The notes under the pieces are model-generated. The model searched no databases, was not told the origin of the DNA, and saw nothing but the letters and a program-made list of their open reading frames with translations. A stretch of 64,000 nt of DNA from Patescibacteria group bacterium. GTDB taxonomy: Bacteria > Patescibacteriota > Patescibacteriia > UBA11705 > DATKZF01. Of this stretch, positions 334 to 8,769 are shown piece by piece. The position numbers and the translations under genes were made by a program. The first letter of the stretch is position 1. Every line of letters starts with the position of its first letter. Where the stretch lies: NCBI GenBank assembly GCA_049319825.1, contig JBMORT010000006.1, positions 166,340 through 230,339 on the forward strand. The letters are read 5' to 3'.

Positions 334-357
334 GGGGTCGCTTGCCCCGTTTTTTAT
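334..357 (+). terminator. rho-independent terminator (GGGGTCGCTTGCCCC hairpin plus T-run) after pyrG
   Basis: GC hairpin followed by GTTTTTTAT. It sits immediately 5' of repeat copy 1. Confidence 0.5.
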
Positions 358-550
358 TTGGCCGCCAGTTTCAATCAGATCTCTCGACTCCGCTACGCGT
401 AGCCTGCCCCGAGCCTTGGCCTGAGCGTAGTCGAGGGGCTCGAGATGACAGTTTAGGGCGGCCAAAGAATCTAGCAGATTTCTCCATTGCGCTCGTCGCC
501 CTCGGCCTTGCTCGGGCTCCTCGCTGCAGTCGAAATGACAAAAAGGGGGA
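352..550. repeat. copy 1 of a ~190-bp palindromic intergenic element (GGCCGCC...GGCGGCC core)
   Basis: About 117 nt (352 to ~468) are identical to 1795 to ~1911. The tail diverges and the shared 3' end is GTCGAAATGACAAAARGKGGGA. The element starts in the T-run of the preceding terminator. Confidence 0.85.
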
Positions 551-639
551 TGGCCGCTTGACGGCATTTATCGCTTATGTTAATCTTTACTGAAGTTCTT
601 TGACATACCCCAAATCGGCAAAGCCGAAAGGAGGCGCGA

Positions 640-1425
640 ATGAGCCGAACACTCAAAGTATTTTTGAGTTGTCTAATCGGTTCCGGGATCGGAACATTCA
701 TCGCACTGTCAGTGAATTCATGGTTCTGGTGGACCGGCGCCCTGGTCGGCGGCCTGATCGGATACTTGTCCTATGAATTCAAGAAAGTGGTGGCCGCGAT
801 TCCAAAGGCTTGGAGAGCGGCGAGTAATTGGACGCCGAATCGATTGTTCTGGAAAACATATCTTGCAGTCGGCGGATACATCTTTCATCTTGCTTTTGCT
901 TCTTTGATGGTTTGTCTTATCATGACGACACCGGGTAGCAATTTACATGTATGGATTACATTATCGGCAGTTGCGGCAATTTTCTTTGGTGTGACATTAG
1001 GTGCCGGCGTAGTCGGAGAATGTTCTGATGAGCAGCTTCAGGCAATTCTTAAGCTTAGTAAAAAATTGTATCTCAATTACAATGTGGTTTCCGTGACAGT
1101 ACTGCTGGCATATCATCTAATCATTTCAATCAGATACGTGCCGAGAGCGGTTTGGGTGGCCATGCGAAGCGTGGGCCGAGCCGGAATGGTTTTGGGACGA
1201 TTTTTCAAACATCTTTTCCTTTTCATCCATTCGGAAATCCGGCTGCTGTGCGCCATTGACTCGCTGTGCGGCGTGATCAGCGGCTATCTCATTAGCCGCG
1301 CATACTCGCTCAGCCTTTTGGCAGGCGTGCTGGTCGGCATGGCAGCGGGCGCATTGCTCGGACTGGTCAATTACCAGCTTGTAAGCGTTCGAGTGCTGAA
1401 AGTCGCACCGAAAAGGAACAATTAG
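640..1425 (+). CDS. hypothetical polytopic membrane protein
   Basis: 261-aa ORF with multiple hydrophobic helices and an AAGGAGG-like RBS (GAAAGGAGGCGCGA ATG). GC is higher than in flanking DNA. It lies between the two repeat copies. Confidence 0.6.
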   Translation: MSRTLKVFLSCLIGSGIGTFIALSVNSWFWWTGALVGGLIGYLSYEFKKVVAAIPKAWRAASNWTPNRLFWKTYLAVGGYIFHLAFASLMVCLIMTTPGSNLHVWITLSAVAAIFFGVTLGAGVVGECSDEQLQAILKLSKKLYLNYNVVSVTVLLAYHLIISIRYVPRAVWVAMRSVGRAGMVLGRFFKHLFLFIHSEIRLLCAIDSLCGVISGYLISRAYSLSLLAGVLVGMAAGALLGLVNYQLVSVRVLKVAPKRNN

Positions 1426-1447
1426 GTTTTGAGAATGAGAGGCTGAT

Positions 1448-1762
1448 ATGAAGCAGACGAAAACCACCGTTGTCTCCAGGAAGTATATGATTCAATGCGC
1501 GCTTGAGTGGTTTGGATTCATTTTGCATGTTTTGTTTATTTCAGCATTATGGATTGGAATAATTGGCGGTGAAGTTTTACTCATGTATTATTTGATAAGT
1601 GATTGGTCGAAAATAACCGCTGAGATGATTTTAAGTGGTTGCTGTTTCATGCTGATAGGGCTAAGCGGTGTTGTGATGTTGCTGACATTCTTAAACGATG
1701 ATGTTTTGCAACATTATGCTGAGTTTAAAATGTGGCTACACTCATTAAAGCCTGAGAAATAA
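1448..1762 (+). CDS. hypothetical small membrane protein
   Basis: 104-aa ORF with 3 predicted TM helices. It starts 23 nt after the upstream gene and is followed by terminator 1774-1800. Confidence 0.5.
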   Translation: MKQTKTTVVSRKYMIQCALEWFGFILHVLFISALWIGIIGGEVLLMYYLISDWSKITAEMILSGCCFMLIGLSGVVMLLTFLNDDVLQHYAEFKMWLHSLKPEK

Positions 1763-1773
1763 GTAAAATAAAT

Positions 1774-1800
1774 CCGCAAAGCAAGTTTGCGGTTTTTTAT
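1774..1800 (+). terminator. rho-independent terminator (CCGCAAAGCAAGTTTGCGG plus T-run)
   Basis: Perfect hairpin plus TTTTTTAT. It directly precedes repeat copy 2. Confidence 0.6.
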
Positions 1801-1980
1801 TTGGCCGCCAGTTTCAATCAGATCTCTCGACTCCGCTACGCGTAGCCTGCCCCGAGCCTTGGCCTGAGCGTAGTCGAGGGGCTCGAGATGACAGTTTAGG
1901 GCGGCCAAAGATTCTGGCGGATTTTTCCATTCCGCCCCTCGATGAACTCGGGGATCCAGTCGAAATGACAAAAGGTGGGA
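1795..1980. repeat. copy 2 of the ~190-bp palindromic intergenic element
   Basis: See copy 1. The two copies bracket the two-gene membrane cassette. Confidence 0.85.
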
Positions 1981-1996
1981 TTAGTTTTTTGTGTGA

Positions 1997-2914: not shown

Positions 2915-3042
2915 ATATTTGGAAATTAGTTGTTTAGAAATTGGAAAATAGTGTTAGAAAATAGAAGTTTGAAAATGGTAATTAAACTAATTTCAATTTT
3001 CCAATTTCCATTACTAATTTCTGTTTTCCAAACAACGATTTT

Positions 3043-4200
3043 CTATTGAAATAATTTAACTTCCGCTTTCCCGATTGCGTCCATAACCAGTGTATCAATT
3101 TCCATATTTTTTTCAAATTTTTCCACATTCTCAAGCTTACCGCGAGTTTGGGGATGCTTGGCCACCAAGTATGAGCAGCAGTCAGCGTAGGGGAGAATGG
3201 AAATTTCATAAGTGCCGATTTTTTCGGCCAGATCAACGGTTTCCTGCTTGTTCATGCCGATTATTGGACGCAAAATAAGAGAATCCGACGCTTGGCTGAT
3301 TAAAATCATGTTTTCCAAAGTCTGCGACGCCACCTGACCTAAGTTATCGCCGGTAACCAAAGCCTTGGCTTTTTCCTTCTTTCTGATTTCTTCTGCCAAT
3401 CGGTGCATGAATCTTCTGTAGACTATCATTCGATAAGAGCTTTCCGTATTGGCGATTATTTGTTTTTGGATGTCGGCAAAGGGGACGGTATAGAGCTTGA
3501 TCGGCCTTTGATATTCTGAAAGCTTGGCGGCCAGCTTTTCAATTTTATCTTGGGCTTGTTTGGAGACAATGGTTTTATTTTGCGCGTGAAACAATAGCAC
3601 CTGAGCGCCGCGCTTCATCATCATATAGGCGGCGACCGGGCTGTCGATGCCGCCGGACATCATGCAGATTACTTTGCCCGAGCTGCCGGTCGGCAGGCCG
3701 CCGGGGCTTTGAATCTTATGTCCAAAAACATAAGCCGTGTCTTTGGATATTTCAATGCCGATCAGCAGTTCCGGTTTGGTGGCGTTTACGCCCATTTTCG
3801 TCTCGTCTTTGATAAATCCACCGACCCGGCGGTTGATCTCCGTTGAATTGAGCTTAAATGATTTATCCGAGCGGCTGGTTTGTATTTTGAAGGTGGATAC
3901 CTTATTTGTTCGGCAAATTTGCAGCGCGCAATTTTTGAGTTCAGTCAATTCGCGCTGGCATTGAAAACCAAGCGCCGCGTTGGCAATGCCGGGAATCTTT
4001 GACATACGCTCAGTCAATTCCATGGCCTGAGTCTGATTTTTAAAATAAACAACAACCTTGCCTTCTTTGGCCAGAATTGCTATATATTCGGAGCGATTTA
4101 ATTGATTTTTAATGTTTTCGATTAAGATTTTTATGAAAAATTTCTTATTTTTTCCTTTTAAAATCAATTCTCCGTAATGAAGGATAATCAGCGGTTTCAT
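3043..4200 (-). CDS. thiI: tRNA 4-thiouridine(8) synthase / tRNA sulfurtransferase ThiI
   Basis: PP-loop SGGIDSPVAAYMMMKRG, an N-terminal THUMP-like region, 385 aa. Confidence 0.9.
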   Translation of the reverse strand: MKPLIILHYGELILKGKNKKFFIKILIENIKNQLNRSEYIAILAKEGKVVVYFKNQTQAMELTERMSKIPGIANAALGFQCQRELTELKNCALQICRTNKVSTFKIQTSRSDKSFKLNSTEINRRVGGFIKDETKMGVNATKPELLIGIEISKDTAYVFGHKIQSPGGLPTGSSGKVICMMSGGIDSPVAAYMMMKRGAQVLLFHAQNKTIVSKQAQDKIEKLAAKLSEYQRPIKLYTVPFADIQKQIIANTESSYRMIVYRRFMHRLAEEIRKKEKAKALVTGDNLGQVASQTLENMILISQASDSLILRPIIGMNKQETVDLAEKIGTYEISILPYADCCSYLVAKHPQTRGKLENVEKFEKNMEIDTLVMDAIGKAEVKLFQ

Positions 4201-8502: not shown

Positions 8503-8769
8503 AGATTTTTAGAAGGCTTGAGGGGGCTTAAGAGGGCTTGAGAAGGCTGAGAGGGAAAGAGGGCAAAACCGTATTGTCGATATTCGGAAATCGTAATCGA
8601 AGTTGGAAAATCGAAATTCGTTTCAAGCGAGTTTCGAATATCGAATTTCCAAACCAATTTCGAGTTTCGACATAACGAATTTCGTCTATCGTATTTCGTG
8701 TCTCGTATTTCGTCTTTCGTGTTTCGTGTTTCGTGTATCACATCTCGCATTTCTTATTCCAACAATCCG
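8503..8769. repeat. low-complexity spacer: GGCTTGAGRGGGC units, then CGAAWTTCG units, then a TTTCGTSTT x8 tandem run
   Basis: Visible directly. It lies between the HlyD-like gene and the ABC ATPase gene, inside the operon on the minus strand. Confidence 0.7.

What the first reader, a model, noticed from the sequence alone, without database searches (positions are those of the whole stretch)
352..1980. Two copies of a ~190-bp palindromic element, each fused to a terminator, bracketing a two-gene membrane-protein cassette
117 nt are identical between the copies. The core is an imperfect long palindrome (GGCCGCC ... GGCGGCC, with internal complementary arms around CTCGAG). The tails diverge but end in the same GTCGAAATGACAAAA box.

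Each copy begins inside the T-run of a rho-independent terminator (after pyrG, and after the 104-aa gene). Together they flank two higher-GC membrane-protein genes (640-1762).

This looks like either a MITE-like or composite mobile cassette, or a duplicated small structured RNA gene. The identical 40-aa reverse-strand ORF in both copies is probably incidental.
Basis: seen in the sequence. Interest (0 to 1): 0.6.

Follow-up and report, generated by a model that had tools for sequence, protein, structure and literature searches.

The report
Ssn-type hairpin repeats beside terminators
The two ~190-200-bp repeats are real, but they are a long-looped variant of a known hairpin repeat family (TGTC/CGTC-tagged REPs, also called Ssn-related motifs) cut by small GIY-YIG single-strand DNA nucleases, inserted at terminator tails in a Patescibacteria genome, and they did not bring in the membrane-protein gene they flank.

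Summary
Copies lie at 349-551 and 1792-1981: 120 nt are identical, the middle diverges, the tail is shared, and each follows a terminator hairpin.

Each copy holds two units of one motif, read on the minus strand: TGTC tag, stem ATYTC, tandem GA, variable insert, GA, GARAT, then C. The same motif occurs in more than 119 loci across many phyla, with compensatory stem changes. In 11 of those loci it flanks a ~95-aa GIY-YIG gene. That protein is a full-length homolog of gonococcal SsnA.

So the units belong with Ssn-related motifs/NTS (Chenal 2025) and CGTC-tagged REPs (Di Nocera 2013). They are atypical in three ways: inserts of 34-56 nt, a GC outer stem around unit 1, and no match to the published SRM search string.

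A syntenic relative keeps pyrG, the membrane gene and ddl without the repeats. This argues against a mobile cassette. Another Patescibacteria-type contig carries the same module behind a homologous gene.

No ssn gene lies in the 64 kb, and genome-wide copy number is unknown. I found no support for a small-RNA reading. Verdict: a new variant of a known kind, of modest interest.

The parts
334..348 (+). Terminator-like hairpin GGGGTCGCTTGCCCC directly before copy A. It is context, not part of the repeat.
   Evidence: The stem differs from the one before copy B.
349..551 (-). Repeat copy A (203 nt). The functional sense, with the TGTC tag 5' of each hairpin, is the minus strand.
349..468 (-). The 120-nt module that is 100% identical to 1792-1911. 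It comprises a T-run, the outer stem, unit 1 and the outer stem again.
   Evidence: identical run. The same module occurs at L128 1073-1170.
358..366 (.). Outer-stem arm TTGGCCGCC. It pairs with 457-465 (GGCGGCCAA).
   Evidence: Conserved in L128.
457..465 (.). Outer-stem arm GGCGGCCAA.
377..450 (-). Unit 1 of copy A. Minus-strand reading: TGTC-ATCTC-GA-[about 52-56-nt GC-rich insert]-GA-GAGAT-C-T. This is the TCT/AGA covariant class.
   Evidence: Boxes AGATCTCTCGA 377-387 and TCGAGATGACA 440-450. Family consensus and covariation.
476..540 (-). Unit 2 of copy A. Minus-strand reading: TGTC-ATTTC-GA-[about 45-47-nt insert]-GA-GAAAT-C-T. This is the TTT/AAA class.
   Evidence: Boxes AGATTTCTCC 476-485 and TCGAAATGACA 530-540. 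They match the family consensus.
541..551 (-). Shared tail AAAAAGGGGGAT. On the minus strand it lies just 5' of the unit-2 tag, which is where an Ssn-type enzyme would be expected to cut. That is inference.
   Evidence: Conserved between the copies. The cut position relative to the tag is taken from PMC11893778.
640..1425 (+). 261-aa hydrophobic protein with no Pfam match. It is syntenic in a relative that lacks the repeats.
1448..1762 (+). 104-aa hydrophobic ORFan. PGAP calls it as 91 aa.
   Evidence: (no homolog among 1.84 billion representatives).
1774..1792 (+). Bidirectional terminator hairpin CCGCAAAGCAAGTTTGCGG before copy B. It is the same terminator type as in L123 and L128.
1792..1981 (-). 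Repeat copy B (190 nt). It lies between the 104-aa gene and the convergent ddl gene.
1820..1893 (-). Unit 1 of copy B, identical to 377-450. Its outer-stem arms are at 1801-1809 and 1900-1908.
1919..1970 (-). Unit 2 of copy B. It is degenerate: the 3' arm reads GGAAAAATCC instead of GGAGAAATCT, so 4 of 5 base-stem pairs remain. The insert is a different hairpin from the one in copy A.

Best explanation
**What it is.** Both copies are non-coding, non-autonomous hairpin repeats of the TGTC/CGTC-tagged REP superfamily. These are the Ssn-related motifs (SRM), of which the Neisseria NTS/dRS3 repeat is the type example.

**Anatomy.** Each copy carries two units in tandem on the minus strand. A unit reads: unpaired tag TGTC; a 5-bp stem ATYTC/GARAT; a tandem G.A mismatch (GA opposite GA); a variable insert; then a C after the stem. 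Unit 1 is additionally clamped by a 9-bp GC-rich outer stem next to a T-run. Together these form a discrete ~120-nt module.

**How it most likely works (inferred).** When the minus strand is single-stranded, during replication, repair or DNA uptake, each unit folds. It is then bound by a ~95-aa single-domain GIY-YIG nuclease of the Ssn family, which nicks a few nucleotides 5' of the tag. That activity would spread or rearrange the repeats. It would also fragment incoming single strands that carry the flagged locus, so shaping recombination around the membrane-protein genes.

**Shown versus inferred.**
- Shown: the anatomy; the family-wide covariation; the link of this motif class to SsnA homologs in other genomes; presence/absence against a relative; the recurrence of the module at terminator tails.
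- Inferred: that this genome encodes an Ssn; that such an enzyme accepts these long-insert units; the biological role.
For: My estimate for chance is about 8. The loci come from Bacteroidota, Acidobacteriota, Chloroflexota, Clostridia, Gammaproteobacteria, Patescibacteria and others.
2. The 5' box AGATYTCTC was not in the search pattern, yet it is conserved and covaries with the 3' box: TTT/AAA 228, TCT/AGA 46, TTC/GAA 21, TCC/GGA 8, TGT/ACA 8.
3. On 101 distinct units, 96.7% of cells pair. There are 68 double-sided changes against 21 +/- 3 in shuffles (0 of 500 shuffles reach this), and slid registers collapse.
4. Unbiased ORF clustering of the loci put a ~95-aa GIY-YIG protein first, present in 11 loci. 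It matches Pfam PF01541. Units abut the gene on both sides.
5. These proteins align full-length to the 94-aa gonococcal SsnA ortholog. That ortholog has Y6, Y17 and E64 as in the paper and is flanked by CGTCATTCCCGC..GCGGGAATC repeats. The hhalign probability is 99.8% (E 6.8e-28); BLASTP gives 39% identity (E 2e-23).
6. PMC11893778 shows that SsnA binds NTS hairpins only as ssDNA and cuts upstream of them. It tolerates extended or split loops. The NTS-ssnA-NTS and NTS-gene-NTS layouts are typical, often around membrane-protein genes.
7. PMC3733652 defines CGTC (also TGTC) tagged REPs with stems that start AT, and equates them with dRS3.
8. The relative L123/L124 (68-81% nucleotide identity, same gene order) has no unit at either site. 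It does have the same terminator type that precedes copy B.
9. L128 carries the same module (T-run, GGCCGCC stem, AGTTTMAATC, TCT-class unit) behind a 47%-identical homolog of the 261-aa gene. It also carries two further tagged units right after terminators.
Against: - No GIY-YIG gene lies in the 64-kb window. The rest of the 365-kb contig could not be read.
- Only four units, at two loci, occur in 64 kb.
- The published SRM search string finds nothing in the window. However, it also misses nearly all units next to ssn genes in my loci.
- The window units span 52-74 nt. SRMs are described as 20-50 nt, and only 19 of 314 units in the loci reach 45 nt or more.
- Unit 2 of copy B has a broken base pair.
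- Folding energies are not better than shuffles.
- Whether Ssn enzymes mobilise these repeats is untested in the study characterising the enzyme (PMC11893778), the only such study in the library searched.
Confidence: 0.6

Rival explanations
1. Same family, but inert. The copies are decaying relics of past repeat activity. This genome has no Ssn partner, and the repeats serve at most as extra hairpins next to terminators.
For: - No ssn gene in the 64 kb.
- Only two loci in the window.
- Unit 2 of copy B has lost a base pair, and the two unit-2 inserts have diverged beyond alignment.
- Di Nocera 2013 raised the possibility that CGTC families are going towards extinction.
Against: - The 120-nt module is 100% identical between the two sites. 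That points to recent insertion or gene conversion.
- The same module exists in a different organism.
- Patescibacteria loci do carry ssn genes with flanking units (L059).
Confidence: 0.22
2. A cis-acting or stand-alone structured RNA. Examples would be a 3'-UTR stabiliser, a terminator helper or a small RNA, transcribed from the repeats.
For: - Both copies sit at gene 3' ends beside terminators.
- Copy B lies between ddl and the bidirectional terminator, so it is probably transcribed.
- Di Nocera 2013 argues that many REPs are transcribed.
- The stem covariation is compatible with RNA as well as DNA.
Against: - No Rfam match at gathering or permissive thresholds.
- Almost no G.U pairs (5 of 707 cells).
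- The conserved GA/GA mismatch reads as TC/TC on the other strand, and units occur in both orientations relative to genes.
- SsnA does not bind RNA.
- No promoter-like site lies in front of either copy.
Confidence: 0.07
3. REP or PATE elements mobilised by a Y1 (HUH) transposase. That would be a RAYT or an IS200/IS605 TnpA, not a GIY-YIG enzyme.
For: - The organisation resembles REP/BIME: hairpins with an unpaired tag, in alternating orientations and in clusters.
- Direct-repeat hairpins at both ends of copy A and copy B resemble IS200/IS605 ends.
Against: - The tag is TGTC/CGTC, not GTAG.
- Di Nocera 2013 found no transposase gene flanked by CGTC repeats.
- Among the top-ranked families in the ORF clustering of 119 loci, the only one recognisable as a nuclease or recombinase candidate was the GIY-YIG family. 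The other top families looked like housekeeping genes or spurious ORFs, but they were not scanned against Pfam.
Confidence: 0.05
4. A composite transposon or cassette. On this reading the two repeats are the ends of a mobile unit that carries the two membrane-protein genes. An integron-like attC system is the extreme version.
For: - Direct repeats bracket two genes.
- The gene content between the membrane gene and ddl differs between the window and its relative.
- A homolog in L128 is also followed by the module.
Against: - The relative has the homologous membrane gene at the same place without the repeats.
- Other homologs have no units nearby: L125-L127, L129 and L130.
- No transposase or recombinase domain is annotated within 10 kb beyond ddl.
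- By eye I see no attC core sites (RYYYAAC/GTTRRRY) at the repeat ends.
Confidence: 0.04

Closest known systems
Ssn-related motifs (SRM) / Neisseria Transformation Sequence (NTS), targets of the Ssn GIY-YIG ssDNA nucleases (Chenal et al. 2025, Nat Commun 16:2388, PMC11893778)
   Same: - Oriented hairpin with an unpaired (C/T)GTC tag.
- The stem starts AT, and a C follows the stem.
- Compare CGTCATTCCCGCG..GCGGGAATC with TGTCATYTCGA..GAGARATC.
- The same motif class flanks SsnA homologs in other genomes.
- The repeat-gene-repeat layout around membrane-protein genes is shared.
- Mostly intergenic.
   Different: - A 5-bp stem plus tandem G.A in place of a continuous 8-bp stem.
- Inserts of 34-56 nt instead of loops of 5 nt or fewer.
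- Two units per element, plus a GC outer stem around one of them.
- The published degenerate string does not match.
- The host is a Patescibacteria MAG, a group not mentioned in the main text of the paper.
- No ssn gene is seen in the window.
CGTC-tagged REP superfamily, including dRS3 and the Rickettsia RPE-4/RPE-6 repeats (Di Nocera et al. 2013, BMC Genomics 14:522, PMC3733652)
   Same: - Tag CGTC, often TGTC.
- AT as the first two stem pairs.
- A short unpaired tail.
- Dimers in head-to-head orientation.
- Found in several phyla.
- Often located downstream of genes.
   Different: - Described stems are 8-9 bp with loops of 4-5 nt and tails close to CCA.
- Here the tails read CTG and the inserts are long.
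- That paper found no dedicated enzyme.
REP/BIME/REPIN elements with RAYT (Y1) transposases
   Same: Short tagged hairpins recognised as ssDNA by a small nuclease whose gene they flank. They form clusters and alternate in orientation.
   Different: A different tag (GTAG) and an unrelated enzyme fold (HUH Y1 against GIY-YIG). No RAYT was found next to these units.
IS200/IS605 family and its PATE derivatives
   Same: Strand-specific subterminal hairpins, single-strand biology and no terminal inverted repeats needed. The two direct hairpin units per element look like left and right ends.
   Different: No TnpA or TnpB here. Transposition by Ssn has not been shown.
Integron attC sites and gene cassettes
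   Same: Imperfect palindromes with conserved ends and a variable centre, placed after genes and recombined as folded single strands.
   Different: No R''/R' core sites and no integrase in view. The flanked gene is syntenic in a relative without the repeats.

Membership tests
SRM/NTS (Ssn-related motif) | Oriented hairpin preceded by the conserved unpaired tag (C/T)GTC, with the stem starting AT | tested here: met
   The minus strand reads CTGTCATCTCGAG (450-438, 1893-1881) and TTGTCATTTCGAC (540-528, 1970-1958). Compare the NTS, CGTCATTCCC.
SRM/NTS (Ssn-related motif) | Stem maintained by base pairing, with C immediately 3' of the palindrome (critical for binding in N. meningitidis) | tested here: met
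   ATCTC/GAGAT-C and ATTTC/GAAAT-C pair 5 of 5 in unit 1 (both copies) and in unit 2 of copy A. Unit 2 of copy B pairs 4 of 5.
SRM/NTS (Ssn-related motif) | Match to the published degenerate search string HGTCWYN(0-2)YYVSBRHN(0-5)WNVSBRGN(0-2)RNCYNB | tested here: not met
   0 hits in the window and only 7 in 845 kb of motif-rich loci. The NTS control matches. The string is a search heuristic built from 29 genomes. It also misses the units that abut ssn genes in my loci.
SRM/NTS (Ssn-related motif) | Size of 20-50 nt | tested here: not met
   The window units span 74, 65 and 52 nt. Only 19 of 314 units in other genomes are 45 nt or longer. The paper shows that loop extension is tolerated in vitro.
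SRM/NTS (Ssn-related motif) | Physical and genomic association with an ssn (cd10448-type, ~95-aa GIY-YIG) gene | tested here: inconclusive
   For the motif class the feature is met: 11 of 119 loci, with units on both sides of the gene, and the proteins are homologous to gonococcal SsnA.
SRM/NTS (Ssn-related motif) | Many copies per genome | tested here: inconclusive
   4 units at 2 loci in 64 kb. The metagenome scan and the spurious-ORF search found no further copies. The Logan assembly breaks at the repeat.
SRM/NTS (Ssn-related motif) | Strand-specific binding and cleavage by the cognate Ssn on ssDNA only | not testable with these tools
   This needs purified enzyme and oligonucleotides.
CGTC-tagged REP (Di Nocera 2013) | CGTC/TGTC tag, stem of 8-9 bp starting AT, loop of 4-5 nt, short tail | tested here: inconclusive
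   The tag and the AT start are met. Stem length, loop length and tail (CTG rather than CCA) are not.
RAYT-associated REP / REPIN | GTAG tag and a flanked Y1 transposase gene | tested here: not met
   The tag is TGTC. Of the top-ranked recurrent families near units, only the GIY-YIG family was recognisable as a nuclease candidate, and the others were not Pfam-scanned.
Integron attC / cassette | R''/R' core sites (RYYYAAC ... GTTRRRY) at the ends and an integron integrase nearby | tested here: not met
   The ends read TTTGGCCGCC... and ...ATGACAAAAGG. No recombinase domain is annotated within 10 kb beyond ddl. The window was not scanned with an integrase HMM.
Any Rfam RNA family | Covariance-model match | tested here: not met
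   No hit at the gathering threshold in the window or in 18 motif-rich loci. No relevant hit at E <= 10 on 250-2050.

The most novel reading that the evidence does not exclude
The ~120-nt module (T-run, GC outer stem, long-insert tagged hairpin) may be a currently mobile, non-autonomous element. It would home to the T-tails of intrinsic terminators in Patescibacteria and be moved in trans by an Ssn GIY-YIG nuclease acting as a single-strand transposase. That would make 'unit-ssn-unit' the first GIY-YIG-driven bacterial insertion sequence, with these repeats as its MITEs. Three observations are compatible with this: 100% identity of the module at two sites, its absence from a relative, and 5 of 5 placements just after a T-run (4 behind a terminator hairpin, 1 behind another repeat's outer stem) in the window and L128. 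Gene conversion plus selection for harmless sites would explain the same observations.
Probability: 0.15. Interest if true: 0.8.

Novelty: new variant of a known kind. Interest (0 to 1): 0.35.

Why it matters
- **Annotation.** The result gives an anonymous repeat in a candidate-phyla genome a name and a testable partner enzyme.
- **Family breadth.** The Ssn/SRM system described in 2025 appears much broader than its published search motif captures. The abundant TGTCATYTCGA...GAGARATC class is missed almost entirely. That matters for anyone counting these repeats or mining Ssn enzymes with new ssDNA specificities.
- **Parallel with Neisseria.** There, such repeats flank surface-protein genes and curb transformation-driven recombination. 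The same layout appears here around a membrane-protein locus whose neighbouring gene content differs between relatives.
- **For this window alone** the finding is ordinary repeat biology.

Tried and rejected
- **Rfam.** Three runs found nothing relevant.
- **Literature search by sequence string.** It returned only unrelated primer matches.
- **Folding of both strands as RNA and DNA.** Energies are no better than shuffles, so thermodynamics is not used as evidence.
- **Metagenome scan with a 21-mer of the module.** It gave one chance hit inside a high-GC coding region.
- **Search for other copies through translated spurious ORFs.** No hits.
- **Published SRM regex.** No hits, but it was shown to be too narrow.
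- **T-run adjacency as a family-wide rule.** Rejected: 12% of units against 8.7% background. It holds only for the window and L128.
- **PDB and NCBIfam searches for the GIY-YIG protein.** No informative match.
- **Homology between the 104-aa gene and the second gene of L130.** None.
- **Orthology between unit 2 of copy B and the TGTCATGCC hairpin after ddl in L123.** The alignment is unconvincing.
- **Hammerhead and other small ribozymes, CRISPR repeats, dif/Xer sites.** Considered from memory and dropped because the conserved cores do not fit.
Full report

Yes. Copies lie at 349-551 and 1792-1981, in direct orientation and 1443 nt apart. The perfectly identical run is 120 nt, 349-468 = 1792-1911. 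It is followed by 24 nt with 5 mismatches, then a non-alignable stretch with a 13-nt length difference, then a shared 25-nt tail that contains GTCGAAATGACAAAA.

A 24-mer of the core occurs exactly twice in 64 kb, against 0 expected. Word-7 blastn finds no third copy. A terminator-like hairpin with a T-run sits directly before each copy (334-348 and 1774-1792).

Corrections to the finding:
- The first terminator is about 170 nt beyond the pyrG stop.
- Only the 261-aa gene is GC-richer than the window. The 104-aa gene is 37.5% GC.
- Folding energies of these copies are not better than shuffles.

**2. The repeats are built from a widespread unit.**

Each copy contains the box TCGARATGACA twice (440-450 and 530-540; 1883-1893 and 1960-1970). 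I scanned one genome per species for two such boxes 55-85 nt apart. My back-of-envelope chance expectation is about 8.

The flanks, which were not part of the pattern, show a second conserved box, AGATYTCTC, a short distance upstream. Read on the other strand, a unit is: TGTC, ATYTC, GA, variable part, GA, GARAT, C.

The three variable stem positions covary as base pairs: TTT/AAA 228, TCT/AGA 46, TTC/GAA 21, TCC/GGA 8, TGT/ACA 8. On 101 distinct 31-nt units:
- 96.7% of cells pair.
- There are 68 double-sided changes against 21 +/- 3 in shuffles (0 of 500 shuffles reach this).
- All slid registers collapse.
- G.T pairs are only 5 of 707 cells.

The window carries both covariant classes. Unit 1 is ATCTC/GAGAT and unit 2 is ATTTC/GAAAT. 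The invariant GA opposite GA would form a tandem G.A mismatch on the TGTC strand only. That points to the minus strand as the functional one here (inference).

**3. What the unit belongs to.**

No Rfam family matches, either in the window or in 18 motif-rich loci. I clustered all ORFs of the 119 loci without prior assumptions. The top recurrent family is a ~95-aa protein present in 11 loci. It is a single GIY-YIG domain (PF01541). Units abut the gene on both sides, most often with the TGTC tags pointing outward.

A literature search then found Chenal et al. 2025 (PMC11893778). Their main points:
- The Ssn family (cd10448) consists of site-specific ssDNA nucleases.
- N. meningitidis SsnA binds the NTS hairpin (CGTCATTCCCGCGMAVGCGGGAATCYRG) as ssDNA only, not as dsDNA or RNA. 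It cuts a few nt upstream.
- The C after the palindrome and the bases before it are critical.
- Loops can be extended or split.
- NTS-ssnA-NTS is the typical gene architecture.
- NTS cluster around membrane-protein genes, and NTS-gene-NTS lowers transformation.

I tested the link directly. tblastn with one of my GIY-YIG proteins hit a gonococcal chromosome that is filed among plasmids. The ORF there is 94 aa with Y6, Y17 and E64, the residues mutated in the paper. It is flanked by canonical NTS repeats. My 11 proteins align to it end to end: hhalign probability 99.8%, E 6.8e-28; BLASTP 39% identity, E 2e-23. The protein family is very large, with at least 7999 scored hits.

Di Nocera et al. 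2013 (PMC3733652) had already classified 'CGTC-tagged' REPs. The tag is often TGTC, stems start AT, and the class includes dRS3 and the rickettsial RPE-4/6. The class was reported in five phyla. No dedicated transposase was found.

The window's units therefore belong with this superfamily.

**4. How the window's elements differ from the described family.**

- The published degenerate SRM string finds nothing in the window and only 7 sites in 845 kb of loci full of these units. The string is too narrow for the ATYTC-GA class.
- Typical units are 25-26 nt. The window's span 74, 65 and 52 nt because of GC-rich inserts. Only 19 of 314 units elsewhere are 45 nt or longer.
- Unit 1 is enclosed by a 9-bp GC outer stem next to a T-run, giving a ~120-nt module.
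- The same module, with a shorter insert, occurs in an unrelated Logan contig (L128). There it lies downstream of a 47%-identical homolog of the 261-aa protein, without a unit 2.
- Unit 2 of copy B has one broken stem pair.
- No GIY-YIG gene lies in the 64 kb.

**5. Context and history.**

The source is an NCBI MAG labelled 'Patescibacteria group bacterium', on a contig of 365 kb. A Logan assembly of the same sample breaks exactly at the repeat.

A syntenic relative, JGI Ga0248667_100022 (= L123, also L124), shares 68-81% nucleotide identity. Its gene order is L9, pyrG, a 324-aa homolog of the 261-aa gene, a terminator, two unrelated small ORFs, then ddl, thiI, GT2 and MacB. It has no unit at all. 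The membrane gene is therefore resident, and the repeats are lineage-specific gains or losses.

The terminator before copy B (CCGCAAAGCAAGTTTGCGG plus T-run) is the same type as the one after the membrane gene in L123, and as two terminators in L128. In L123, unrelated sequence follows its T-run. This places the module's insertion right at the terminator tail.

In the window and L128 together, 5 of 5 tagged elements start just after a T-run. Four of them follow a terminator hairpin. The fifth, the GGCCGCC module in L128, follows the outer stem of the preceding repeat. Across the wider family this is not a rule: 12% against 8.7% background.

The 104-aa gene has no homolog among 1.84 billion representative proteins. 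Other homologs of the 261-aa protein sit in varied contexts. Some are near resolvase genes, one is near short canonical units (L131), and several have no units nearby.

**6. Mechanism and rivals.**

The best-supported reading is that these are non-autonomous Ssn-type hairpin repeats. They would act as ssDNA recognition sites on the minus strand, and they were inserted or homogenised recently (the module is 100% identical at two sites) at harmless positions behind terminators.

- Shown: anatomy, covariation, the enzyme association of the motif class, presence/absence against a relative, and recurrence of the module.
- Inferred: that this genome has an Ssn, that such an enzyme accepts long inserts, and what the consequence is. 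The candidates are repeat spread and/or cutting of incoming single strands, which would modulate recombination at the membrane-protein locus as in Neisseria.

Rivals:
- Inert relics: plausible, given no ssn gene in view and a decayed unit 2 in copy B.
- Structured RNA: weak, for the reasons in section 3.
- RAYT/IS200-type REPs: wrong tag, and no Y1 gene seen.
- Composite cassette or attC: contradicted by the relative.

**7. Verdict.**

Interest is modest for this window. Two by-products are more useful: the published SRM motif misses a very abundant class, and tandem half-unit arrays remain unexplained.

Noticed in passing
window 2918-3046 and 8565-8683; L123 4024-4147 and 10043-10169: A second, unrelated repeat family. 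It is an AT-rich palindrome of ~120-130 nt built from GAAATTCG/CGAATTTC-like sub-repeats. Its intergenic positions differ between the window and the relative. A partial match lies in the pyrG spacer at 263-283.
   Followed up: partly
L003-L121 (e.g. L059, L076, L056, L033, L004, L011, L089, L095): 37 loci carry tandem arrays of only the tag-side half unit (TGTCATYTCGAS plus ~8-11 nt). Arrays have 3-7 copies with a period often of 19-24 nt. They frequently end in one complete hairpin unit. The sample is biased by the scan pattern, and the origin of the arrays is unexplained.
   Followed up: partly
L003-L121 versus L132: The published SRM degenerate string misses almost all TGTCATYTCGA..GAGARATC units (7 hits in 845 kb). 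In at least 6 of 11 loci the units next to ssn have their tags pointing outward like inverted-repeat tips. At gonococcal ssnA the nearest units point inward.
   Followed up: partly
window 1448-1762: The 104-aa hydrophobic ORF is an ORFan: it matches only itself among 1.84 billion representative proteins. It sits between the 261-aa gene and a terminator that directly follows the homologous gene in relatives. PGAP calls it as 91 aa.
   Followed up: yes
L123 6001-6975: The relative's 324-aa homolog carries a tandem duplication of its first ~48 codons (MSSKFK...GYL.F.FK appears twice). It shows up as two blastn hits to window 575-809.
   Followed up: no
window 1774-1792; L123 7082-7100; L128 955-973 and 1411-1429: A conserved bidirectional terminator type, (A-run)TCCGCAGAACAnnTCTGCGG(T-run), recurs after this membrane-gene family in three different organisms.
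   Followed up: partly
L123 7823-7851: A perfect hairpin, TGTCATGCC-N13-GGCATGACA, lies about 12 nt after the ddl stop in the relative. This is roughly where unit 2 of copy B lies in the window. Orthology could not be shown.
   Followed up: partly
window 1-64000: Cumulative GC skew rises monotonically across the window. The + strand is therefore probably the leading strand, and the tagged (cleavable-sense) strand of both repeats would not be the lagging-strand template. With only two elements this means little.
   Followed up: no
NZ_CP119140.1 and NZ_CP119142.1 (PLSDB): Two 2.17-Mb Neisseria gonorrhoeae records filed as plasmids look like whole chromosomes. One supplied the ssnA locus used here.
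   Followed up: no
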